From a virus (Duplodnaviria > Caudoviricetes), in the IMG/VR virus record IMGVR_UViG_3300025632_000005, positions 1 to 58,901 of that record: a stretch of DNA of 58,901 nt, one strand, 5' to 3'. This document shows, one piece after another, positions 22,987 through 44,451 of the stretch (the first letter of the stretch is position 1; each line of letters opens with the position of its first letter). Made by a program: the position numbers and the translations under genes. The notes below the pieces were generated by a model, which saw nothing but the letters and a program-made list of their open reading frames with translations, did no database searches and had not been told where the DNA came from.

Positions 22987-23472
22987 TTACTTTCCACTAG
23001 TGCCGTTCGCTTTCTGTTTTTTAAATTCTAGGTACTCGTTCCATTCTTGATCTGAAGCACTTCTAGATTTACTTTCCATTACTACAGTTTTAGAAATACG
23101 TTCATCAACCTCCTTAAAATTTTTGGCTTGAGTCAATGCCTCAAACAAATTCCAAGTTATCATAAAGGCTTTAGATTGAACCTTATATTCTTTAGCCCAT
23201 ATGTCATTGATAGTTATTGCAAACATATCTTTTTGAGATTTGGATTTAATTTTACCTTTTCCGTAACCCACTGGAAAATAAACCAAATCACCGTTTAATA
23301 GTGTAACGCCTTTTTTAGTTTGGATTGTCCACTTAGGATCACCGTTATAATCTAGCATAGGCGTTCCGTCTTTTTTCATTTTAGGAACGATCTCTTTTAC
23401 TTCATCAAAATCATAAATTTTGACTCCGTCTTTTTTGATTCGTTCCAAATCTAAATTTAAATCTTTTTTCAT
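22987..23472 (-). CDS. Hypothetical protein, lone gene divergent from the early arm
   Basis: AAGGAG RBS; 161 aa. Confidence 0.65.
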   Translation of the reverse strand: MKKDLNLDLERIKKDGVKIYDFDEVKEIVPKMKKDGTPMLDYNGDPKWTIQTKKGVTLLNGDLVYFPVGYGKGKIKSKSQKDMFAITINDIWAKEYKVQSKAFMITWNLFEALTQAKNFKEVDERISKTVVMESKSRSASDQEWNEYLEFKKQKANGTSGK

Positions 23473-24068
23473 TTTTTATCTCCTTTGTTAAAGATTTATA
23501 TTTATGAAAGACTGTCAATTTTTTGACATTCAAAATAGTCAGTCCTTCAATTGTAGACTAATTCAAATCTCGAAAAATGTCAAGTTTTGAATTATCGACC
23601 ACTTGAAACCCACGGAATCCGTGCATTCCTAGGGTGTTCTATTTTTGTTCTTTTGATTCTGAATCGTGCAACTTATTAATTTAATACTTATTATTCTCTT
23701 TTTCCCCTTTTATGATTTAGGTACATAGCTATCATACGCAGAAGAGTAGTAACAATTTAGAATGATTCTAAGTTAGGACACATACCCACCGAGAACACCC
23801 CTAATACATATGTCAAGTTGTATTTATGCAACAAATACATAGCTAATTTGCTAACAAAAAACCATAAAGACCAGGGACTTATGTGATTTACTTGGCGAGA
23901 AAAAAGTTGCAATCGGTCGAATTTTCGAGTATCGTTGAAAAATCTGGGAAATTTCGCAAAATTCTGCATATGTTTCTTAGATATGATAATAACTTATACA
24001 CTATTCTAGGGCATCTAGATTTTCTTCCCAATTCAGTTCTAGGATAGTGTACTAACAAAGGAGACGAC

Positions 24069-36732: not shown

Positions 36733-38657
36733 CGACATTACCAACTGTTTACCAACAATTTATACACAAATCTAGATATGCTAGATGGTTACCAGAAGAA
36801 AAGAGAAGAGAGGAATGGCACGAAACTGTAAGTCGGTACTTTAATTTCTTTAAACAACAACTAAAAAAGAATTGTGACTATGATTTAGATAAAAAAACTA
36901 TGGACTATTTATCTAATAAAGTCATGAAGTTAGATGTCATGCCATCAATGAGGGCACTAATGACTGCGGGCCCAGCCTTGGAAAAAGAAAACATAGCTGG
37001 GTATAATTGTTCTTATGTTCCAGTAGATCACCCAAAAGCTTTTGATGAAATATTATATGTACTTATGTGTGGGACGGGAGTTGGCTTTAGTGTTGAGAAA
37101 AAATATACCAGAAATTTGCCTAGTGTTGCTGATGAGTTTCACAATACAGAGACTGTTATTATGGTCAGAGACTCCAAGCTTGGTTGGGCAAAAGCATTTA
37201 GGGAAATCGTTACACTATTGTATGCCGGGCAAGTCCCAAGGTGGGATGTATCTAATGTGCGACCATCAGGAGCAAGACTTAACACTTTCGGCGGCCGAGC
37301 TTCTGGACCTGCACCTCTTGTCGACCTCTTCAACTTCGCCATTGAAACCTTTACTAAAGCAAAAGGCAGACAACTAACACCACTTGAGTGTCACGATCTT
37401 GTCTGTAAAGTAGGTGAGATTGTTGTTGTTGGAGGAGTAAGACGTTCGGCTATGATTAGTTTATCAGACCTTGATGATAGAGACATGAGAGATGCGAAGT
37501 CTGGTGAATGGTATAGAGTTGAGGCACAACGTGCGCTATCAAATAACTCTGCCGTATATGAAACCAAGCCAGATAACATTGGAACTTTTATGGAAGAATG
37601 GTTAGCGCTATATAAATCTGGTAGTGGTGAACGCGGTATCTTTAACAGACAAGCCTCAAAGAAAGTTGCATCACGTAATAAAAGAAGAGACGCTGACTTT
37701 GAGTTTGGAACTAATCCGTGTTCGGAAATAATTTTACAACCTTTCCAATTTTGTAACTTATCCGAAGTAGTGGTACGTGAGAGCGATAAAGAAGAAGACT
37801 TACTAGATAAGGTTGAGGCGGCTACTATACTTGGTACTATGCAAGCTACCTTAACAAACTTTAAATATCTACGAAGACAATGGAAAGATACAACAGAGAA
37901 AGAAAGATTACTCGGAGTATCTTTAACTGGTATCATGGATCATAAAATATTATCTGGAAATATTTATAACAAAGCTGTACTAACAGAGTTGCTTGTGAAA
38001 TTAAAAGATAAAGCAGTAGCTGTTAATAAGACATGGTCTAAACGATTTGGTATCAACCAAGCTACGGCTATTACTTGTGTTAAACCATCAGGCACAGTAT
38101 CACAATTAGTTAATGCTGCATCTGGTATACATGCAAGGCACAATGATTATTACATTCGTAGAGTTAGAGGAGATAAGAAAGATCCACTAACACAATTCTT
38201 ACAAACTCAGAATATACCAATAGAAGATTGTGTTATGAAACCAGATTCTACATCTGTCTTTTCATTTGTAGAGAAAGCACCAAGTGGGTGCATAACTCGT
38301 AATAAACGTACGGCTATTGAACAATTAGACCATTGGTTAGTTTATGCCAAACATTGGTGCGAGCACAAACCAAGTGTAACTATATCAGTGGATGAAGATG
38401 AGTGGCTTGGTGTAGCTGACTGGTGTTGGAGAAACTTTGATGATCTTAGTGGTATATCTTTCTTACCTAACTTTGGGCATGTGTATCAACAAGCACCGTA
38501 TGAAGATATAGATGAAATAAAATATCACAAGTTAAAAAAGAACCAACCAAATAAAATTAATTGGAATGAACTAGCATTGCATGAGCAAGAGGATCACACC
38601 AAGTCCTCCCAAACTCTTGCATGCAGTGCTGGGTCATGTGAGGTTGTGGATGTATAA
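36729..38657 (+). CDS. nrdJ: Class II (adenosylcobalamin-dependent) ribonucleotide reductase
   Basis: PSMRAL, YNC, GTGVGF, GGVRRSA, TNPCSE, CNLSEV, KPSGT, C-terminal CSAGSC; no small-subunit gene seen. Confidence 0.9.
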   Translation: MTTLPTVYQQFIHKSRYARWLPEEKRREEWHETVSRYFNFFKQQLKKNCDYDLDKKTMDYLSNKVMKLDVMPSMRALMTAGPALEKENIAGYNCSYVPVDHPKAFDEILYVLMCGTGVGFSVEKKYTRNLPSVADEFHNTETVIMVRDSKLGWAKAFREIVTLLYAGQVPRWDVSNVRPSGARLNTFGGRASGPAPLVDLFNFAIETFTKAKGRQLTPLECHDLVCKVGEIVVVGGVRRSAMISLSDLDDRDMRDAKSGEWYRVEAQRALSNNSAVYETKPDNIGTFMEEWLALYKSGSGERGIFNRQASKKVASRNKRRDADFEFGTNPCSEIILQPFQFCNLSEVVVRESDKEEDLLDKVEAATILGTMQATLTNFKYLRRQWKDTTEKERLLGVSLTGIMDHKILSGNIYNKAVLTELLVKLKDKAVAVNKTWSKRFGINQATAITCVKPSGTVSQLVNAASGIHARHNDYYIRRVRGDKKDPLTQFLQTQNIPIEDCVMKPDSTSVFSFVEKAPSGCITRNKRTAIEQLDHWLVYAKHWCEHKPSVTISVDEDEWLGVADWCWRNFDDLSGISFLPNFGHVYQQAPYEDIDEIKYHKLKKNQPNKINWNELALHEQEDHTKSSQTLACSAGSCEVVDV

Positions 38658-39216
38658 AACATTTATAACTATACCGAAAGCTGTTCCGATAAAGTTATGT
38701 GATGAGATGGTAAAAGAGTCACCAGATTATTCGGAACAGTTGGCTGGTGTTATGTGGAAAAAAGAGGCGGACTTAAAGAAAGATAGAAACTCTAAGATTA
38801 AATGGTATCCTCTTGAGCATTGGATTGTTCCTAAGTTGTGTGAAGTTGCATCGCAAATAAATAAACAAGATTATGGTTTTGATGTGACTAACTTACAGTG
38901 CCCTCAGTTTACTGAGTATACAAAAGGACAACATTACCAATGGCACAGAGATATATACCCACCAGAGATGGACGGACCATATCCAGGATTGATACGAAAG
39001 TTATCTATGATTGTACAGTTGTCTAACTTTGAGGATTACAAGGGTGGCATCTTACAAATTAAAAACATGGACGGTAAGATAGAACCGATTGAAGGATTTA
39101 AAGATAAAGGTGATATGATTATCTTCCCATCTTTTTATTTACACAGAATAAAAGCAGTAACAGAAGGAACACGACACAGTTTAGTGTGTTGGTTTATGGG
39201 GCCACCGTTTAGATAA
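38650..39216 (+). CDS. 2OG-Fe(II) oxygenase (prolyl-hydroxylase-like)
   Basis: Start revised to MYKTF; Y.WHRD, RKLS, Y.GG, FPSF..H.I..VT.G.R.SLV.W. Confidence 0.85.
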   Translation: MYKTFITIPKAVPIKLCDEMVKESPDYSEQLAGVMWKKEADLKKDRNSKIKWYPLEHWIVPKLCEVASQINKQDYGFDVTNLQCPQFTEYTKGQHYQWHRDIYPPEMDGPYPGLIRKLSMIVQLSNFEDYKGGILQIKNMDGKIEPIEGFKDKGDMIIFPSFYLHRIKAVTEGTRHSLVCWFMGPPFR

Positions 39217-39305
39217 TGGATAAATTCTTGTGGGGACTTCTTAAATTTTCATTATATGTATTAGCTATACAGCTGATATGTATTTTTATGGCTTCTATTA
39301 CATGA
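39216..39305 (+). CDS. Small membrane peptide not in the ORF track (29 aa)
   Basis: TAATG and ATGA coupling at both ends; MDKFLWGLLKFSLYVLAIQLICIFMASIT. Confidence 0.45.
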   Translation: MDKFLWGLLKFSLYVLAIQLICIFMASIT

Positions 39306-39652
39306 AAAATTTAGTAGTACGACCATGGGGAACATATCGAGTTCTAAAAGCTACACCAAAAATAGTTATAAAGATATTAAATGTCTATCCAAATAGAGCA
39401 ATGTCCGTTCAATACCATAAATATAGAAATGAACACTGGAAAATACTTGAAGGCGAAGTAACGGCCCTCATAGATGAGCACTGGTGGACGTTTCTACCTG
39501 GTCATAGAGTTTATATCCCAAAAAATACTGTTCATTGTGTACGGGCTTCTAATAGGCATACAAGGATATTCGAGGTTTGGGAGGGTGAAAAACTAGATGA
39601 AAACGATATTATAAGGATACATCATGATTATAGTAGTGAGTGGGGGGTTTGA
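39302..39652 (+). CDS. Cupin, mannose-6-phosphate isomerase type II C-terminal-like
   Basis: RPWG.Y.VL, S.QYH..R.EHW, IP....H, EV..G..L.E.DI.R. Confidence 0.8.
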   Translation: MKNLVVRPWGTYRVLKATPKIVIKILNVYPNRAMSVQYHKYRNEHWKILEGEVTALIDEHWWTFLPGHRVYIPKNTVHCVRASNRHTRIFEVWEGEKLDENDIIRIHHDYSSEWGV

Positions 39653-40049
39653 TCCCCTACATTCTGGACATATAAATATGTTCAAACAAGCTTATGAGTT
39701 CGGAACTGTGTGGGCAATTGTTAATACAGACGAATGGTTACAAAAAAAGAAAGGTTATAACTTACTAAGCTATGACGAACGTGAGCTTGTGTTAAGTTCA
39801 AACAAATATATAGACAAAGTTATCAAAGCAAAAGATGATGACGATACTGTAGTAAATAATTTAAAAGAGTTTGTTAAGAACGATATGGATTTTGCTTTTG
39901 CTAATGGTGGTGATCGTATACCTACATCTACACCAGAGATGACATATTGTCTTGAGAATAATATTCCTATGTTGTTTAATATCGGTGGAACTAAGACAGA
40001 ATCATCTTCTAAAATTGTTCGTAATTTACTTGACCAAGCTACTAAATAA
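39624..40049 (+). CDS. Cytidylyltransferase-family nucleotidyltransferase (TagD/RfaE-like)
   Basis: SGGFDPLHSGH (HxGH), KKG, ER, ANGGDR and SSS motifs. Confidence 0.85.
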   Translation: MIIVVSGGFDPLHSGHINMFKQAYEFGTVWAIVNTDEWLQKKKGYNLLSYDERELVLSSNKYIDKVIKAKDDDDTVVNNLKEFVKNDMDFAFANGGDRIPTSTPEMTYCLENNIPMLFNIGGTKTESSSKIVRNLLDQATK

Positions 40050-40083
40050 TATATATTTAGAAGTGAACACCAACGTCGTCAAT

Positions 40084-40126
40084 AATCCCTAGGGGTGGGT
40101 AATGTAAACCTCTAGGGATTTTTTTT
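40084..40126 (+). terminator. Rho-independent terminator ending the replication arm
   Basis: AATCCCTAGGGG / CCTCTAGGGATT stem followed by a T run. Confidence 0.75.
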
Positions 40127-40222
40127 GCCCAAACAAATTATCGGACATCTATACCCTAACAAGTTTCTTTTATTACTATTTGGAAATCTATTACCTCTAA
40201 GAGGTTTGTAAAGAATTGTAAT

Positions 40223-40247
40223 GGGTGGGGCTAATTCGCCCCTTCCC
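40223..40247 (-). terminator. GC-rich hairpin directly after the pqqA stop codon
   Basis: GGGGC-GAATTA-GCCCC stem with an extended GGG/CCC base; weak U tail. Confidence 0.5.
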
Positions 40248-40322
40248 TTATTTTTCGGCACAAGCATAGCTATTGATTTCAAGACCAACAGATACAACCG
40301 TGATTGATGGTTTAGACCACAT
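40248..40322 (-). CDS. pqqA: PqqA-like pyrroloquinoline quinone precursor peptide (24 aa, not in the ORF track)
   Basis: MWSKPSITVVSVGLEINSYACAEK has the W-x2-P leader and G-x-E-x3-Y core; GGAG RBS 6 nt upstream. Confidence 0.85.
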   Translation of the reverse strand: MWSKPSITVVSVGLEINSYACAEK

Positions 40323-40394
40323 AATCAACTCCATTTGTTAAAGGTTAACAAACAGTGCTGGTTGCCTTTACGACCGCAGCCCACTGATTATTAT

Positions 40395-40423
40395 ATTTTA
40401 CTTCTTCATGTTCTCTCTTGCAA
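40395..40423 (-). promoter_or_regulatory. Sigma70-like promoter for pqqA
   Basis: TTGCAA-17 bp-TAAAAT overlapping the end of the holin gene, with a second TATAAT nearby. Confidence 0.55.
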
Positions 40424-40808
40424 CCCCTTTTGATTTTTCAAAAGAACGTAAGCCTCCCATTCCGAGTAAGGCTATCGTTAAAGAAATAAGTTCACCAGTA
40501 TCTATAAAGTTTGGCATACTAATTTCTGGTGCAAACAAGGCTGTGAACCAAGTCATTAGTGGTAGTATAAAGAAGTTTACAAATAAACCTATTGCGCAGA
40601 CCCACATGATTGCTGGTCGTGCTCCTGCTACAAACATGCTTGGATGTTTAGCTGCTTCGGTGTTAGCTTTGGCTTGTTCTTTTGCTAAAGCATTCGCATG
40701 CTTCTGTGACATGGTAGCTATATCGTGAGCTAGGCGTGCTTTTTGGTCTTTGTCTTCTATGAATTTATCAAGTAGCCCAGTAACTGGACCGATGAGTGCT
40801 GTTAACAT
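40398..40808 (-). CDS. Holin of 3 TMs (GTA holin / DUF3154 family)
   Basis: LIGPV.GLLDKFI.DKD, FVAG.RPAI.W and LLGMGGLRSFEK.KGV signature. Confidence 0.85.
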   Translation of the reverse strand: MLTALIGPVTGLLDKFIEDKDQKARLAHDIATMSQKHANALAKEQAKANTEAAKHPSMFVAGARPAIMWVCAIGLFVNFFILPLMTWFTALFAPEISMPNFIDTGELISLTIALLGMGGLRSFEKSKGVARENMKK

Positions 40809-41119
40809 TACTTAGTTCCTTCTTCAATTTTCTCTAGTATAACATCTTTTAGTTGGTCCATCAAAACATAGGCCATATGTAAGTTAATACTACCAGCAAA
40901 GTAATCTACCAAGGGTCCTTTATCATCAAACAAAACAGTCATGACACCAGTGGCTTCGTGCTTACTGGCATCTTCTTTAATAACATCTATTTGATTTATA
41001 ACTAATTTATTAAAATGATCTGGCGGAAACTGTTTAGCCATGTCAGCAGTCATGATATGTTCGTTAGTGTCTTTAAATAAATTAACAACTACGTCTTCAG
41101 GTTTCTTTTTATCTGTCAT
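40808..41119 (-). CDS. Hypothetical protein
   Basis: 103-aa ORF, TAATG-coupled to the holin gene. Confidence 0.6.
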   Translation of the reverse strand: MTDKKKPEDVVVNLFKDTNEHIMTADMAKQFPPDHFNKLVINQIDVIKEDASKHEATGVMTVLFDDKGPLVDYFAGSINLHMAYVLMDQLKDVILEKIEEGTK

Positions 41120-41163
41120 CTAAAACAATAGGAATATTATTACGTTTATAATTATGTATGTTG

Positions 41164-42072
41164 TCATTTTCTTTCCAATAAATGTTTATATGGTAGACCA
41201 TGAGCCATCTCTGTTACAGTCCACTGTGTGTAAGCTAAGTCGTTAAACAGTTGTTGTCTATCTTCCATCTTTGGATTCTCTACACAACTAATATCGTGGG
41301 AGCTGATTGGATAAGCAAAGTTAAGATTGCTAGGTGTAATAACAGGGACACCAGCAAGCAGACTATCCACAGTACCTCCCGACGAGTATCCAACAGTTGC
41401 CCAAGCGCCTTGCAAGTCTTTATAAATTGGGTCTTTATTTCCATAAACCATAGTAACATTTTCTTGTCCATCTACAAACTCCTCAAATTTAGACAGATCG
41501 TAAGACGATATAAGAGGATGCATCCGTACTCTTATAGGTCTCTTCGATACCTTTTTACATTTAATTATTTCTTCTCGTAACCATTGTAATATTTCTACAT
41601 TAGCCGTAGCCGCATCACCTGGTAGCTGCATTAAGAATAGTATATAGTCTCCATCTTTTCTCCAGTCCTTAATCCCAAGGTCAAGGTCTGTTTTAATTAT
41701 ACCCCATCTATCCTTATGAGAATTTTTATTGTTAAAGGTACCTAATGTATTCATGTAGTGTCCTTTACCAACACGATAATACTTATGATCTTCAGTTATT
41801 GTTCTACCTAGTAGTGGTGTCTCAATAACAAGTAGGTCACCTTTGTGTTTATTAACTACACTGTTTTTTAATAGATGATGAGATATTCTTCTATCCTTCC
41901 AAGATCCAAATATGATAGCTACGTCACACTCCATATATTCTGTTGAGTTAGATAAGAATACTAGGTCGTTTGTTGTTTCTCTAATACCATGAGTCATGGC
42001 TGTTAATGTATTTACATGTGGTTGATGTACAGCCGAGTTTAAAAATACACCGACTACTTTACGGGATGTCAT
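41164..42072 (-). CDS. GT-B fold glycosyltransferase (capsule biosynthesis KpsS/KpsC-like)
   Basis: Q.PGDA, RVRMHP, SS...VDSLL.GVP and LAYTQW...E...G motifs. Confidence 0.7.
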   Translation of the reverse strand: MTSRKVVGVFLNSAVHQPHVNTLTAMTHGIRETTNDLVFLSNSTEYMECDVAIIFGSWKDRRISHHLLKNSVVNKHKGDLLVIETPLLGRTITEDHKYYRVGKGHYMNTLGTFNNKNSHKDRWGIIKTDLDLGIKDWRKDGDYILFLMQLPGDAATANVEILQWLREEIIKCKKVSKRPIRVRMHPLISSYDLSKFEEFVDGQENVTMVYGNKDPIYKDLQGAWATVGYSSGGTVDSLLAGVPVITPSNLNFAYPISSHDISCVENPKMEDRQQLFNDLAYTQWTVTEMAHGLPYKHLLERK

Positions 42073-43687
42073 CGAATAACTCCTTGTAACTTAATTGTTT
42101 ATTTTTATCTTTAAGACCATCTTCCCACAGTGCTTTGACAAGACCGTCACCGTGCACGTGGATATCTATATCGACTTCTTCTCTTTGCATAAGTTTTTCA
42201 AAGTCTTGGGCTTGAGCTAGTAACTCACCTGTTGTCCAGTGTGGTTCATTCTCTTCGCCAACAGATACCTTTAGCCATTTCTTTCTCCCATCCTCGGCTA
42301 ACTCATTCTTATTTTTTGGCTCGCCCTCAATTGATGAATCAAATCCAAACAAGTGTACGGATCTAAAACCCAATGTATGTAGCATACCAATAGTTCTCAT
42401 ACCTGCGCAAGTGCCACCAGTAATTAATGTTTTGTTCTTAAAATAATCCCAACCTTCAATTGCATTACAATAGGCATCCCAAGCTACAATTTTACATTTA
42501 TGTTCTAGTAGATGTGTAACTACTTCTGGGTTAGACATGGTTGCTACCCAGTACATAACATCTTTATGCGGTTTAGCTAGTAAATCTTTACGTACATAAC
42601 CGTGTGTAGATTTTTCGTTGAATGGTCTCGGATCAAGTATTGTACAAGACCACGGTATTACACCATTATCTATCAATGTGTTGTGACTATGCTTAACACA
42701 TACAACTTTTGTACCCTTAGCTTGCATCTCTTTTATTTTACCAATGTCTTTCATAAGAGATGGACCAGCTGATGCAATGATAACTTCTTCGTTGTTCCAT
42801 TTACATCGTTCTAGTTTAGAGTCAACTCTTTTAGAATTAGTTATGATATTCATACGGATATCTTCTATCGGCATACAATCTTGTGGTGTAACTACAATTG
42901 GTTTCTTAGTTGAGCCTTCTTCCTTCTGCGCTTGTACTTTAGTATTTGGCGGTTCTTGACTAGCTTGTTGTTGTTTGAACTTCAACATACCTTTGTTGTG
43001 ATACATGTGTCGGACTAACGGTGAGGCCTCAAATGCATTGAGGTCGGCACAGTGTGGTGAAAGGTTATGTACCTTGAGACCATGCGCTTGATGTAAATTA
43101 ATTATACGTGTCAATACAAAAGCATCATGCCACTCACGATAGTTATACACTTCACCCGTGTTCCACACCCCAAACATATCAGCAAACAAAGCCTTGTTGA
43201 GATCAGACATACGTAAAGCTAAGAACCCCGCCTCGATATAGTTGACAGCCGTTCGACCAAGCACAGATATATCGACATCTTCTGGGATCCACTTTTGGAT
43301 ATCATCCATAGTTACCTTTTTGTACGTAACGGTATCAGCATCAAGCCATATACCGACATCACATTTAGGTGCATTCTTAACAAAGAAGTCATACTCAGTG
43401 TACACTTTATAGGCCCACCTCTTTACATCGGTTCGCCAGTTAGGGTCATCTTTTTTATCTTTATGTTTAGAAAAGAACTGACAGAGTTCTTTTGATTGAT
43501 TCATGAGGTTAATGAACTCGACTCTATTAGGGTCATAGTTCTGTAGACCACATTCAGGCCAGTCATTATAATATACATATAATTTAGTTTCTTTAGGCCA
43601 GTATTTTACAAAACTATCTATACATTCTTTTGCATAGACATTCCAATGGTCGCCGCGAAACGACGTTACAAGTGAAAATGTAGGCAT
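42059..43687 (-). CDS. Fusion of an N-terminal GT-A glycosyltransferase and a C-terminal Maf/MptE-like domain
   Basis: WLDADT (DxD), E.GF, EWHDAFV, H.KG; then IIASAGPSL...LDPR...GGT.AG....LGF..VHLFGFD. Confidence 0.7.
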   Translation of the reverse strand: MPTFSLVTSFRGDHWNVYAKECIDSFVKYWPKETKLYVYYNDWPECGLQNYDPNRVEFINLMNQSKELCQFFSKHKDKKDDPNWRTDVKRWAYKVYTEYDFFVKNAPKCDVGIWLDADTVTYKKVTMDDIQKWIPEDVDISVLGRTAVNYIEAGFLALRMSDLNKALFADMFGVWNTGEVYNYREWHDAFVLTRIINLHQAHGLKVHNLSPHCADLNAFEASPLVRHMYHNKGMLKFKQQQASQEPPNTKVQAQKEEGSTKKPIVVTPQDCMPIEDIRMNIITNSKRVDSKLERCKWNNEEVIIASAGPSLMKDIGKIKEMQAKGTKVVCVKHSHNTLIDNGVIPWSCTILDPRPFNEKSTHGYVRKDLLAKPHKDVMYWVATMSNPEVVTHLLEHKCKIVAWDAYCNAIEGWDYFKNKTLITGGTCAGMRTIGMLHTLGFRSVHLFGFDSSIEGEPKNKNELAEDGRKKWLKVSVGEENEPHWTTGELLAQAQDFEKLMQREEVDIDIHVHGDGLVKALWEDGLKDKNKQLSYKELFDDIP

Positions 43688-44451
43688 TTCATATCCTTTA
43701 ATGTTGATCCATGTTGGTAATCCATGTGAGCTTTTTCAGCAAACCATTTGTCTGCATACTCACAGTCGTCATAACCGCTCATCCACGGACCACCTAAAGA
43801 AAAGTGAACAGCTGATGGTGTAAGCGGGGTATGTTCCCCCATTATACCTGGAACATAATTCCATTTTGGGTTGAGTTCTCCTACACTAGCAGGCCCTCGT
43901 GAGAGCCATTTGAATTGATGAAGGTCAAGACCTTTCATATCGTTGACATCATAACAAGATAATTCTTTGTTAGATTTATGATCCATATTAAAAGCCATAA
44001 GCGAAGACCACAACTTACAGTTGTATTTTGTCTGTATCTTATTATCCATCTTAGTATTTTCTTCTGGGTGATAATTAAACTTAACTGTCATTACTGGATA
44101 GCTATCATCTAGTTCATCAAGTAAATTTTTTATATCATCAAGCCATAAGAAATCACAATCACAAAAGATTACCCACCCCTTTACTTTGTTTCTTCTTGCT
44201 AGTTCTGGAATAAGAAACCGAGTATGACTGAACTCCGTAGAAAAAGGTGCGTTGTCTTTAACGTCCCAGTGTTGTCCGTTCTTATCAATGCGCCATTCAC
44301 GATCAAACAATTTAAAGTATCGTAAATTATTATGCATGAGGGGAGTGACAGCCACAGGTATAGACGATCGTCTTACAACGGAATGAGCACACACTTCGTA
44401 TGCATCTATTTCTCTTGAGTCCCAACCGATCGCCACGTGGACGTCTTTCAT
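43666..44451 (-). CDS. GT-A (GT8-like) glycosyltransferase
   Basis: IGWDSRE..AY.VC..S, STEFS..RFL.P, FCDCDF (DxD), WSSLM and HFSLGGPW. Confidence 0.8.
   Translation of the reverse strand: MKDVHVAIGWDSREIDAYEVCAHSVVRRSSIPVAVTPLMHNNLRYFKLFDREWRIDKNGQHWDVKDNAPFSTEFSHTRFLIPELARRNKVKGWVIFCDCDFLWLDDIKNLLDELDDSYPVMTVKFNYHPEENTKMDNKIQTKYNCKLWSSLMAFNMDHKSNKELSCYDVNDMKGLDLHQFKWLSRGPASVGELNPKWNYVPGIMGEHTPLTPSAVHFSLGGPWMSGYDDCEYADKWFAEKAHMDYQHGSTLKDMKCLHFHL

What the first reader, a model, noticed from the sequence alone, without database searches (positions are those of the whole stretch)
40248..40322. Hidden phage-encoded PqqA-like PQQ precursor peptide
Seen: a 24-codon minus-strand ORF below the track's size cut-off, MWSKPSITVVSVGLEINSYACAEK, with a GGAG RBS, in the gap between the converging gene arms. 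Known: PqqA is the ribosomal precursor of the redox cofactor PQQ; PqqE/PqqD cross-link the Glu and Tyr of its E-x-x-x-Y motif. The W-x-x-P N-terminus and VG-x-E-x-x-SY-x-x-AE ending match my recollection of alphaproteobacterial PqqA. No pqqB-F genes are visible. Inference: the phage supplies only the consumed peptide substrate to the host maturation machinery, boosting PQQ for periplasmic alcohol, methanol or glucose dehydrogenases during infection, or acts as a decoy for PqqD/E. This would be a minimal RiPP-precursor auxiliary metabolic gene and points to a PQQ-making alphaproteobacterial host.
Basis: partly seen in the sequence, partly recalled or inferred. Interest (0 to 1): 0.9.

Follow-up and report, generated by a model that had tools for sequence, protein, structure and literature searches.

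The report
Phage-borne PQQ precursor gene pqqA
A complete marine phage genome carries only the tiny gene for PqqA, the peptide that bacteria use up to make the cofactor PQQ, probably to keep its methanol-eating host supplied during infection; virus-borne pqqA has been reported before, so this is a well-supported new example, not a new kind of gene.

Summary
The 24-codon ORF at 40248-40322 (-) is real and is a genuine pqqA. It scores 31.2 bits on TIGR02107 (cut-off 20) and 23.5 bits on Pfam PqqA (cut-off 21.1). It has GGAG 6 nt before the ATG and a hairpin after the stop.

The window is a complete 58.9-kb virus record with terminal repeats. I found no PqqB, PqqC, PqqD, radical-SAM or PQQ-dehydrogenase gene in it.

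The core GLEINSYACAEK equals that of 27 cellular pqqA copies, all in low-GC DNA. One lies in MAG MED657, which a 2025 paper places in the methylotroph order TMED127/Methylaequorales. Five such genomes carry PqqE, and the one read in full has pqqABCDE beside xoxF.

The gene is accessory: 12 of 81 relatives chosen by the neighbouring holin have it. It is under strong purifying selection (pN/pS 0.09-0.25).

Best reading: an auxiliary gene that supplies the consumed precursor to host PqqBCDE. Function and expression are not shown.

Viral PqqA was published in 2020 (Lake Baikal), and this scan has noted phage pqqA on other DNA in at least 206 genomes.

New details are the alphaproteobacterial type and a conserved 5' element, one copy of which sits before rpoH in a host-like genome.

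The parts
40248..40322 (-). pqqA coding sequence, 24 codons plus TAA; leader residues 1-12, core 13-24 with Glu15 and Tyr19
   Evidence: Purifying selection.
40329..40332 (-). Shine-Dalgarno GGAG, 6 nt before the ATG
   Evidence: A GGAG/AGGAG box is seen at this place throughout the alignment of 60 related cassettes (not counted row by row).
40353..40386 (-). Conserved 5' element able to form a bulged hairpin (CAGTGG-G-CTGCGGTC, loop, GGCAACCAGCACTG). It is tied to alphaproteobacterial-type pqqA in phages.
   Evidence: 55 of 65 unique contexts lie directly upstream of pqqA; 92.9% of cells paired against 21-60% when slid, but little covariation; one compensatory G-C to A-U change in L119. No Rfam family.
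40334..40352 (-). Second small hairpin (TTTGTTAA-CCT-TTAACAAA) just before the Shine-Dalgarno box; present only in the window-like lineage
   Evidence: MFE and centroid; alignment columns 43-63. It is also present in the host-like rpoH leader.
40223..40247 (-). GC-rich hairpin directly after the stop (GGG..GGGGC-GAATTA-GCCCC.CCC), without a U tract
   Evidence: 55 of 60 unique cassettes have a hairpin of -13 kcal/mol or stronger here, built from several different stem sequences. One search found no canonical intrinsic terminator.
40395..40423 (-). Weak sigma-70-like promoter match TTGCAA-17-TAAAAT inside the 3' end of the holin gene
   Evidence: 9 of 12 matches, and 5 sites found against 3.5 expected in shuffles. 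This is only a lead.
40398..40808 (-). Upstream neighbour: 3-TM holin (GTA_holin_3TM). Holin followed by pqqA is the conserved block in both synteny types.
   Evidence: 56.6 bits.

Best explanation
The ORF is a functional, phage-borne stand-alone pqqA. The radical-SAM enzyme PqqE, with the chaperone PqqD bound to the N-terminal leader, cross-links the Glu and Tyr of E-x3-Y. PqqB and PqqC and a protease finish the cofactor.

The phage has none of these enzymes, so its peptide can only be matured by the host. The likely host is a genome-streamlined, low-GC marine alphaproteobacterial methylotroph of the TMED127/Methylaequorales kind. Its energy supply runs through a very highly expressed PQQ-dependent XoxF methanol dehydrogenase.

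By adding a strongly translated copy of the consumed precursor, packaged as a small cassette (5' element, SD, 24 codons, 3' hairpin) behind the holin gene, the phage keeps or raises PQQ supply, and so methanol-derived energy, while host transcription declines.

Shown here: the identity of the peptide; the lack of maturation genes in the phage; the presence of all of them plus xoxF in genomes with the same peptide core; purifying selection; the accessory distribution. Inferred: translation during infection, recognition by host PqqD/PqqE, that PqqA is limiting, and the benefit to the phage.
For: HMM membership above curated cut-offs. The window is a complete viral genome with TerS, TerL, portal, head, tail-fibre, primase-helicase and PolA genes.

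No PqqB, PqqC-type, PqqD, radical-SAM or PQQ-dehydrogenase gene was found in it.

The core GLEINSYACAEK is identical to 27 cellular copies, all in DNA of GC 0.26-0.36. One of these, L144, is MAG MED657, which PMC12542740 lists in TMED127 (Results section read).

Of 5 such genomes, 5 have PqqE over the cut-off and 4 have a methanol/ethanol-family PQQ dehydrogenase over the cut-off. Locus L328 reads pqqA-B-C-D-E next to xoxJ, cytochrome c and xoxF; the pqq genes, the xoxJ-like binding protein and the dehydrogenase are over their cut-offs, the cytochrome c match (126.2 against 161.75 bits) is below its own.

Precursor dosage seems to matter in methylotrophs. These genomes hold 2-3 pqqA copies. 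Methylophilaceae hold 3-12 pqqA copies but one pqqBCDE set (PMC4109929, passages).

The same logic recurs in another host group. A 23-codon type sits in 9 GenBank records of cultured Methylophilales/Methylophilaceae phages.

Selection: pN/pS is 0.175 for the 24-codon type (n=17) and 0.205 for the 23-codon type (n=97). It is 0.089 without the ascertained codons in a set found through the 5' element. There the unforced core codons have pS 0.62 and pN 0.

Glu and Tyr are kept in 55 of 55 complete copies found through the 5' element and in 12 of 12 found through the holin.
Against: No direct evidence of expression. Two metatranscriptome runs hold the whole region as long contigs, which may be carried-over DNA.

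The gene is dispensable. It is absent from 69 of 81 holin-defined relatives, including three with 90% identical holins.

It sits at the end of a late (structural and lysis) operon, which would be late for boosting metabolism unless the weak promoter match is real.

The window's leader has Val-Val where almost all cellular and phage copies have Glu-Ile or Glu-Val (positions 9-10). The same TVV variant does recur in a second N-terminal background (L355, L363).

Host assignment rests on the peptide type and one 73-nt match. No TerL relative was found in 21 host-like genomes. The nearest cultured phages by TerL are Pelagibacter phages, at only 37-39% identity.

That PqqA is rate-limiting in this host is not known.
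Confidence: 0.68

Rival explanations
1. Decoy or inhibitor. The phage peptide binds host PqqD/PqqE but is not turned into PQQ. This would shut down host PQQ synthesis, for example to redirect S-adenosylmethionine or reducing power, or to block superinfection-related signalling.
For: The leader differs from the host's (MWSKPSITVVS against MAWTKPMISEIS). The window lineage has lost the conserved acidic residue at position 9. There are no maturation genes in the phage.
Against: A dead-end decoy has no need to keep the cross-linked residues and the whole core. Yet the unforced core codons show pS 0.62 with pN 0, and the core is identical to the host's. Lowering PQQ would cut the energy supply of an obligate methylotroph during infection. 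Phages of Methylophilales keep host-type peptides as well.
Confidence: 0.08
2. A peptide with another role, tied to lysis or the envelope. It always follows a holin and is often followed by a small lipoprotein-like gene, so it might act in the lysis cassette or as a signal, not in cofactor supply.
For: Holin, then pqqA, then (in some) a roughly 105-aa protein with an N-terminal hydrophobic stretch ending in Cys. This order holds in both synteny types. In the 23-codon type, cell-wall hydrolase and M15 peptidase genes are frequent neighbours.
Against: The sequence is a full-length PqqA by two curated models. It tracks the PqqA subtype of the presumed host, which a lysis role would not require. 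Neighbours of the 23-codon type are very diverse (recombinases, HSP20, RegA, terminase). Accessory genes often sit next to lysis cassettes (general phage knowledge, recalled).
Confidence: 0.07
3. A recently captured host fragment carried passively, with no benefit to the phage.
For: Sporadic distribution: 12 of 81. Small size. The cassette appears at two different genome positions.
Against: Synonymous sites are near saturation (pS 0.5-0.7) while the peptide is conserved. The ORF is intact in 120 of 120 pattern hits. The phage copies have their own conserved 5' element, which is absent from the 120 cellular pqqA loci except L135, which is phage-like. This means long residence in phages.
Confidence: 0.04

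Closest known systems
Virus-encoded PqqA of Lake Baikal viral population VP_266 (Coutinho et al. 2020, Microbiome 8:163, PMC7678222; preprint passages read)
   Same: A PqqA precursor gene in a virus predicted to infect methylotrophs, read there as an auxiliary gene that boosts PQQ for methanol dehydrogenase.
   Different: That virus is a freshwater one assigned to Methylophilaceae hosts, and it also carries a methanol dehydrogenase gene. The window is marine, has the alphaproteobacterial 24-codon type, and has no dehydrogenase.
23-codon pqqA in cultured Methylophilales/Methylophilaceae phages (Venkman, P19250A, MEP301, MEP401, MEP402, Melnitz x4)
   Same: A stand-alone, host-type pqqA in lytic phages of obligate methylotrophs. 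It is unannotated in the five non-Melnitz records and called hypothetical in the four Melnitz records.
   Different: A different peptide subtype (about [23 protein letters not shown]). The 5' element of the window type is absent there (0 of 107 loci). The window's own peptide found nothing in that collection.
Chromosomal PqqA of low-GC marine Alphaproteobacteria with a pqqABCDE-xoxF island (for example L328; MED657 = TMED127/Methylaequorales, PMC12542740)
   Same: The core VGLEINSYACAEK is identical and the W-x-K-P leader motif is kept. A hairpin follows the gene.
   Different: The host peptide has 25 residues (MAW...). It is followed by pqqB-E or stands as a second orphan copy, and it lacks the phage 5' element.
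Extra orphan pqqA copies of methylotroph chromosomes (3-12 in Methylophilaceae; PMC4109929, passages read)
   Same: pqqA is multiplied apart from a single pqqBCDE set, which implies that precursor dosage matters.
   Different: Those copies are cellular, not viral.
Cyanophage psbA (recalled, not tested here)
   Same: The logic is the same: the phage resupplies a host component that is consumed or turns over fast, so that energy production continues during infection.
   Different: psbA encodes a complete working protein. pqqA encodes only a substrate that needs four or five host enzymes.

Membership tests
PqqA (NCBIfam TIGR02107 / Pfam PF08042) | Score at or above the curated cut-off of the family models | tested here: met
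   TIGR02107 31.2 bits against 20. PF08042 23.5 bits against 21.1. Six-frame search of the genome: 28.9 bits, a single candidate.
PqqA (NCBIfam TIGR02107 / Pfam PF08042) | Short ribosomal peptide (about 20-30 residues) with its own start, RBS and stop | tested here: met
   24 codons, with GGAG 6 nt upstream. 120 of 120 viral pattern hits have 23 or 24 codons.
PqqA (NCBIfam TIGR02107 / Pfam PF08042) | Conserved Glu-x3-Tyr pair that PqqE cross-links | tested here: met
   E15 and Y19. Kept in 55 of 55 complete copies found through the 5' element and 12 of 12 found through the holin. The chemistry is taken from PMC10906245 (passages).
PqqA (NCBIfam TIGR02107 / Pfam PF08042) | Encoded next to pqqBCDE | tested here: not met
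   No PqqB, PqqC-type, PqqD or radical-SAM gene in the complete phage genome. This is usual context and not definition: orphan copies are common in methylotrophs.
PqqA (NCBIfam TIGR02107 / Pfam PF08042) | Binds PqqD and is converted to PQQ | not testable with these tools
   The peptide is below the 30-residue minimum of complex prediction, so no job was sent.
Viral auxiliary metabolic gene | Lies inside a bona fide, complete viral genome and not in host flank | tested here: met
   The record has direct terminal repeats and 100% estimated completeness. Phage hallmark genes lie on both sides.
Viral auxiliary metabolic gene | Homologue of a host metabolic gene whose pathway partners are in the presumed host | tested here: met
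   pqqABCDE and xoxF occur in genomes with the same peptide core. The host identity itself is inferred.
Viral auxiliary metabolic gene | Maintained by selection in viruses | tested here: met
   pN/pS 0.09-0.29, depending on the set and on whether forced codons are excluded.
Viral auxiliary metabolic gene | Expressed during infection | tested here: inconclusive
   Only Logan contigs of RNA libraries were available. Long contigs span the whole region, so DNA carry-over cannot be excluded.

The most novel reading that the evidence does not exclude
The window and its relatives are the first recognisable phages of the uncultured ocean methylotroph order TMED127/Methylaequorales. Their pqqA travels as a self-contained expression cassette: a phage-specific, almost invariant 5' RNA element, an SD, 24 codons and a 3' hairpin. 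This cassette moves between phage genome positions and has exchanged sequence with the host. A copy of its leader, 85% identical over 73 nt, now drives the heat-shock sigma factor gene rpoH in one host-like genome.
Probability: 0.3. Interest if true: 0.6.

Novelty: new member of a known kind. Interest (0 to 1): 0.42.

Why it matters
PQQ-dependent XoxF methanol dehydrogenase is reported as the most abundant transcript of TMED127/Methylaequorales, at 16-57% of that SAG's transcripts (PMC12542740, Results section read). A phage that tops up the consumed PQQ precursor would tie viral infection directly to methanol oxidation in the surface ocean.

The gene also works as a host marker. The peptide subtype in a phage matches the subtype of its host group: Methylophilales phages in culture, and low-GC Alphaproteobacteria here. 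That can assign hosts to uncultured viral contigs.

The gene is below ORF-calling cut-offs. It is unannotated or 'hypothetical' in the GenBank phage records seen, so it is under-counted in surveys of viral metabolic genes.

Tried and rejected
1. blastn (distant) of window 39000-42000 and tblastn of the 24-aa peptide against the GenBank phage collection found nothing. For such a short query this shows little.

2. Rfam at E up to 1 on the pqqA region and on the host-like rpoH locus gave no family.

3. RNAalifold on the whole 218-column cassette alignment gave an uninformative consensus. I then tested a hand-drawn hairpin instead. It is well paired but nearly invariant, so covariation support is weak: only the outermost pair varies, and 28 of 59 cells there are unpaired, partly because of a one-column misalignment of 4-5 rows.

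4. The intrinsic-terminator scan found none in 39900-40900.

5. A search for the window's TerL in 22 genomes that hold the same peptide core found none in 21. This tested whether any single-cell genome was an infected cell. The one positive (G022, titled Maricaulis sp. IN14) has 7 TerL-like genes on 7 contigs, so it is a bin of phage contigs. Its locus L135 was therefore treated as phage-like, not cellular.

6. RNA libraries: two metatranscriptome runs hold the stretch as 6-19-kb contigs. One oligo-dT run holds short contigs of a 95-99% relative, one of which overlaps 40197-40233. None of this shows transcription.

7. The MptE-like domain of the 542-aa protein was considered as a possible second methylotrophy gene (tetrahydromethanopterin synthesis). 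I rejected this: the only NCBIfam match is weak and is to flagellin-modification protein PseD, so a Maf-type glycosyltransferase is more likely.

8. Short matches of window 23464-23521 to host-like genomes lie in an AT-rich, low-complexity RBS region and were dismissed.

9. Kinship of genomes reached through loci is not told by the genome search. Host taxonomy therefore rests on record titles and on PMC12542740.

10. Complex prediction was not used, because the peptide is shorter than the 30 residues it asks for.

11. Supplementary tables of the papers were closed. Table S3 of PMC12542740 lists the 64 TMED127 genomes and could confirm or refute that the AG- single-cell genomes used here belong to that order.

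Searches behind 'not in print': 'pqqA'+'phage' gave 60 papers, of which I read passages in three. 'OM43'+'phage'+'PQQ' gave 3 papers, with PQQ named only as a medium supplement. 'SAR11'+'pqqA'. 'TMED127' gave 10 papers, and the main one has 0 occurrences of 'phage'.
Full report
OBSERVATION. 
The minus strand of the window carries ATG at 40322-40320 and TAA at 40250-40248. GGAG lies at 40332-40329, 6 nt before the ATG. An in-frame ATG at 40334 overlaps that Shine-Dalgarno box. It is not conserved in relatives, so the MW start is taken as real.

The ORF sits in the 348-nt gap between two converging arms. The rightward arm ends with a class II ribonucleotide reductase, a 2OG-Fe(II) oxygenase, a mannose-6-phosphate-isomerase-like cupin and a cytidylyltransferase that ends at 40049. 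The leftward late arm ends with a 3-TM holin at 40398-40808.

IS IT PqqA? 
Both curated models say yes. TIGR02107 gives 31.2 bits against a cut-off of 20 (E 1.4e-7). Pfam PF08042 gives 23.5 bits against 21.1 (E 5.7e-5). In a six-frame search of the whole record it is the only candidate.

I scanned IMG/VR with a DNA pattern that fixes only M1, W2, K4, P5, G13, E15 and Y19. All 120 of 120 are ORFs of 23 codons (107) or 24 codons (13). Each is preceded by a purine-rich Shine-Dalgarno-like box, read by eye in the printed upstream sequence, and each ends at the same relative place. The pattern did not demand any of these properties. This is far from a chance ORF.

WHAT THE WINDOW IS. 
The genome search reports that the window is a whole virus record of 58,901 bases with direct terminal repeats and 100% estimated completeness. 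It encodes:
- small and large terminase, portal, GroES-like co-chaperonin, major head protein and tail fibres;
- primase-helicase, DNA polymerase I, a Cas4-like exonuclease and DNA methyltransferases.

The closest cultured phages by large terminase are Pelagibacter phages HTVC027P and HTVC023P, at only 37-39% identity. There are no tRNA genes.

No radical-SAM domain, PqqD, PqqB, PqqC (TIGR02111, whose control rang nowhere, and also the broader PF03070) or PQQ-repeat dehydrogenase was found. So the phage has the substrate gene and none of the enzymes. PqqF was not searched.

WHOSE PqqA IS IT? 
Nearly all lie in records titled Alphaproteobacteria or orders within it.

The exact C-terminal core of the window, GLEINSYACAEK, occurs in 27 copies. 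All are in loci of GC 0.26-0.36. The many high-GC alphaproteobacterial copies end differently, for example AEV, AEI, ADL. Typical cellular forms are 25-mers: MAWTKP[MT]ISEISVGLEINSYACAEK and MAWNTPKI[TSA]EISVGLEINSYACAEK.

One of these loci (L144) is titled 'Rickettsiales bacterium isolate MED657'. Glass et al. 2025 (PMC12542740; abstract and Results section read) name MED657 as a member of 'Clade X'. They place this clade in the order TMED127, which they propose to rename Methylaequorales. They describe:
- uncultured surface-ocean obligate methylotrophs with genomes of about 1.5 Mb;
- a 'methylotrophy island' in which methanol oxidation and PQQ biosynthesis genes are adjacent;
- xoxF5 as 16-57% of the transcripts of one SAG.

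I checked five genomes with the window's peptide core. Their assemblies are 1.3-1.4 Mb.
- 5 of 5 have a PqqE above the NCBIfam cut-off.
- 4 of 5 have a methanol/ethanol-family PQQ dehydrogenase above the cut-off. The fifth is cut by a contig end.
- Locus L328 reads pqqA, pqqB, pqqC, pqqD, pqqE and then, on the other strand, a xoxJ-like binding protein, a methanol-related cytochrome c and the dehydrogenase. All are over their cut-offs except the cytochrome c, which scores 126.2 bits against 161.75.
- These genomes hold two or three pqqA copies each.

I tested it only as far as described here.

A SECOND, INDEPENDENT LINK TO THESE GENOMES. 
I searched 20 kb of the window against the five genomes. 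Besides the pqqA copies themselves (73-82% identity), it found one match of 85% identity over 73 nt (E 1.4e-14). The match joins window 40323-40395, the leader between holin and pqqA, to G004 contig 2.

In G004 this sequence lies directly upstream of a 300-residue sigma factor with the RpoH box QKKLFFNLR. The similarity runs through both leader hairpins and the GGAGTTGATT ribosome-binding region up to the start codon. The rpoH genes of the other four genomes do not have it. This is a single case. I read it as evidence of sequence exchange between this phage lineage and that host lineage, and no more.

THE CASSETTE. 
The first leader hairpin (window 40386-40353) is strikingly conserved. I scanned IMG/VR for its two arms, which together have 18 fixed bases, and found 106 stretches. 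They gave 65 unique contexts:
- 55 lie 20-35 nt upstream of an alphaproteobacterial-type pqqA;
- 1 is the same but cut by a contig end;
- 8 are unrelated high-GC matches;
- 1 is the G004 rpoH leader.

The element is absent from 107 of 107 loci with the 23-codon type. It is also absent from the cellular pqqA loci, except the phage-like L135. Of the 13 type-2 loci found through the coding pattern alone, 8 have it exactly. One more (L119) has it with a compensatory G-C to A-U change.

On an alignment of 60 unique cassettes, my proposed bulged hairpin is paired in 92.9% of cells, against 21-60% when the partners are slid. It is nearly invariant, though, so covariation support is weak. No Rfam family matches.

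Directly after the stop, 55 of 60 cassettes have a GC-rich hairpin of -13 kcal/mol or stronger. These hairpins are built from several different stem sequences, for example GGGGC/GCCCC in the window, and GGGAGC/GCUCCC, GGGGAC/GUCCCC and GGGAGAC/GUCUCCC elsewhere. So the structure is kept, not the sequence. The host island copy is likewise followed by a hairpin before pqqB.

An earlier agent (e1-3413488) and two first readers (e1-6269461 on this same stretch, e1-6259286) had noted hairpins, a structured leader and a promoter in the holin's 3' end. The promoter match here is weak: 9 of 12, with 5 sites found against 3.5 expected.

DISTRIBUTION AND SELECTION. 
To avoid choosing relatives by the gene itself, I fetched 80 viral loci through the neighbouring holin (46-100% identity). 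I searched them with an HMM built from the viral peptides. With the window, 12 of 81 have pqqA just downstream of the holin:
- all ten with 96% identity or more;
- one of four at 90%;
- one at 60%.
Three loci with 90% identical holins have other small genes there instead.

So the gene is accessory. Two synteny types exist. In the window type, holin-pqqA lies at the end of the tail arm. In a second type, it lies between the portal module and the GroES-head genes. In both types pqqA follows a holin. In some loci a roughly 105-residue protein with a hydrophobic N-terminus ending in Cys follows and overlaps the end of pqqA. The window lacks that gene and keeps only a degraded remnant.

Pairwise Nei-Gojobori counts, pooled over all pairs:

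| Set | n unique | pS | pN | pN/pS |
|---|---|---|---|---|
| 24-codon type | 17 | 0.60 | 0.105 | 0.175 |
| 23-codon type | 97 | 0.68 | 0.139 | 0.205 |
| 24-codon type, ascertained codons left out | 17 | - | - | 0.247 |
| 23-codon type, ascertained codons left out | 97 | - | - | 0.288 |
| 24-codon genes found through the 5' element, forced codons excluded | 29 | - | - | 0.089 |
| Same set, nine unforced core codons only | 29 | 0.62 | 0 | 0 |

These pairs are not phylogenetically independent. The ratios are descriptive and are not a test.

A CAVEAT ON THE WINDOW'S OWN PEPTIDE. 
Positions 9-10 are Val-Val (S-I-T-V-V-S). Almost every cellular and phage copy has Glu followed by Ile or Val there. 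The leader is the part thought to bind PqqD (PMC10906245, passages). The same T-V-V variant also occurs with a host-like MAWNTPK start in two other viral contigs (L355, L363). That argues it is tolerated, but its effect is unknown.

WHAT IS ALREADY KNOWN. 
Coutinho et al. 2020 reported a PqqA gene in a Lake Baikal viral population predicted to infect Methylophilaceae. They read it as boosting PQQ for a virus-encoded methanol dehydrogenase (passages). A 2026 reservoir-sediment study lists virus-encoded pqqA, pqqD and pqqE among phosphate-solubilisation genes (passages).

tblastn with a 23-codon viral copy found 12 GenBank phage records. Nine are cultured phages of Methylophilales or Methylophilaceae: Venkman, P19250A, MEP301, MEP401, MEP402 and four Melnitz isolates. 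The five non-Melnitz records have no feature annotated under the match; the four Melnitz records have only 'hypothetical protein'. The remaining three are one uncultured Caudoviricetes record (100% identity, 'hypothetical protein') and two 'Acinetobacter phage MD-2021a' records with weak matches (78% of the query, E 1e-2, no feature).

This scan has recorded phage pqqA on other DNA many times: 293 notes in at least 206 genomes. These include the same 24-codon type (e1-3444941, e1-3413488).

I found no paper that links phages to TMED127. The search 'TMED127' gave 10 papers, and the main one has no occurrence of 'phage'.

MECHANISM AND ODDS. 
Shown:
- a genuine, selected pqqA in a complete phage that lacks the maturation enzymes;
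- the full pathway and its main client enzyme in the genomes that share the peptide core.

Established knowledge: one PqqA is consumed per PQQ, and PqqE with PqqD cross-links Glu and Tyr (PMC10906245). Methylotrophs multiply pqqA but not pqqBCDE (PMC4109929).

Inferred: the phage copy is translated in the infected cell, is accepted by host PqqD/E, and raises or maintains PQQ for XoxF. I put this at about 0.68.

A decoy is less likely (0.08), because the core is under the strongest constraint. A lysis-linked or other role gets 0.07, and passive carriage 0.04. The remainder is left unassigned. That the host is of the TMED127 kind I put at about 0.6.

VERDICT. 
The finding is a new, alphaproteobacterial member of an already reported kind of viral auxiliary gene. 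The conserved 5' element, its copy before a host-like rpoH, and the probable TMED127 host are the parts that go beyond what I found in print.

Noticed in passing
L329 1417-1490 (G004 contig 2, 10916-10989), matching window 40323-40395: The phage pqqA leader (both hairpins and the GGAGTTGATT ribosome-binding region) is 85% identical over 73 nt to the sequence directly upstream of rpoH (sigma-32, with the QKKLFFNLR box) in one host-like genome. The rpoH genes of four sister genomes lack it.
   Followed up: partly
L009 12719-13042(-), L015 3892-4209(-), and L042, L061, L088, L119; absent in window 40112-40247: A protein of about 105 residues follows pqqA in some relatives, and its start overlaps the last codons of pqqA. 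It has a hydrophobic N-terminus ending in Cys and several conserved Cys residues (lipoprotein-like, perhaps a spanin). The 3' hairpin of pqqA lies inside its signal-peptide codons. The window keeps only a degraded remnant.
   Followed up: partly
window 38581-40049(+) and 41164-44451(-): A likely sugar-nucleotide and glycosylation set flanks pqqA: a 2OG-Fe(II) oxygenase, a mannose-6-phosphate-isomerase-like cupin, a cytidylyltransferase, and a 542-aa protein with an MptE-like/PseD-like (Maf-type glycosyltransferase) domain among the late genes. This suggests glycosylated virion proteins.
   Followed up: partly
G022 (record titled Maricaulis sp. isolate IN14; locus L135): This 4.1-Mb 'MAG' holds 7 different TerL-like genes on 7 contigs, and a low-GC contig with a phage-type pqqA cassette. 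It appears to be, at least in part, a bin of phage contigs and not a Maricaulis genome.
   Followed up: partly
L355 2225-2403(+), L363 1148-1329(+), L339, L349, L337, L344: Phage copies also occur with host-like 25-26-residue starts (MAWNKP..., MAWNTPK..., MSKWTQPK...). The window's unusual T-V-V leader variant recurs in the MAWNTPK background.
   Followed up: no
window 40086-40118: An inverted repeat (TCCCTAG ... CTAGGGA) preceded by an A8 run lies between the converging arms. It is a possible two-way terminator. A related A-run followed by TCCCTAGAG follows pqqA in L337, L344, L375 and L385.
   Followed up: no
L217 2135-2870, L155 2975-3760, L140, L172: Some alphaproteobacterial genomes carry two or three tandem pqqA copies within about 1 kb.
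   Followed up: no
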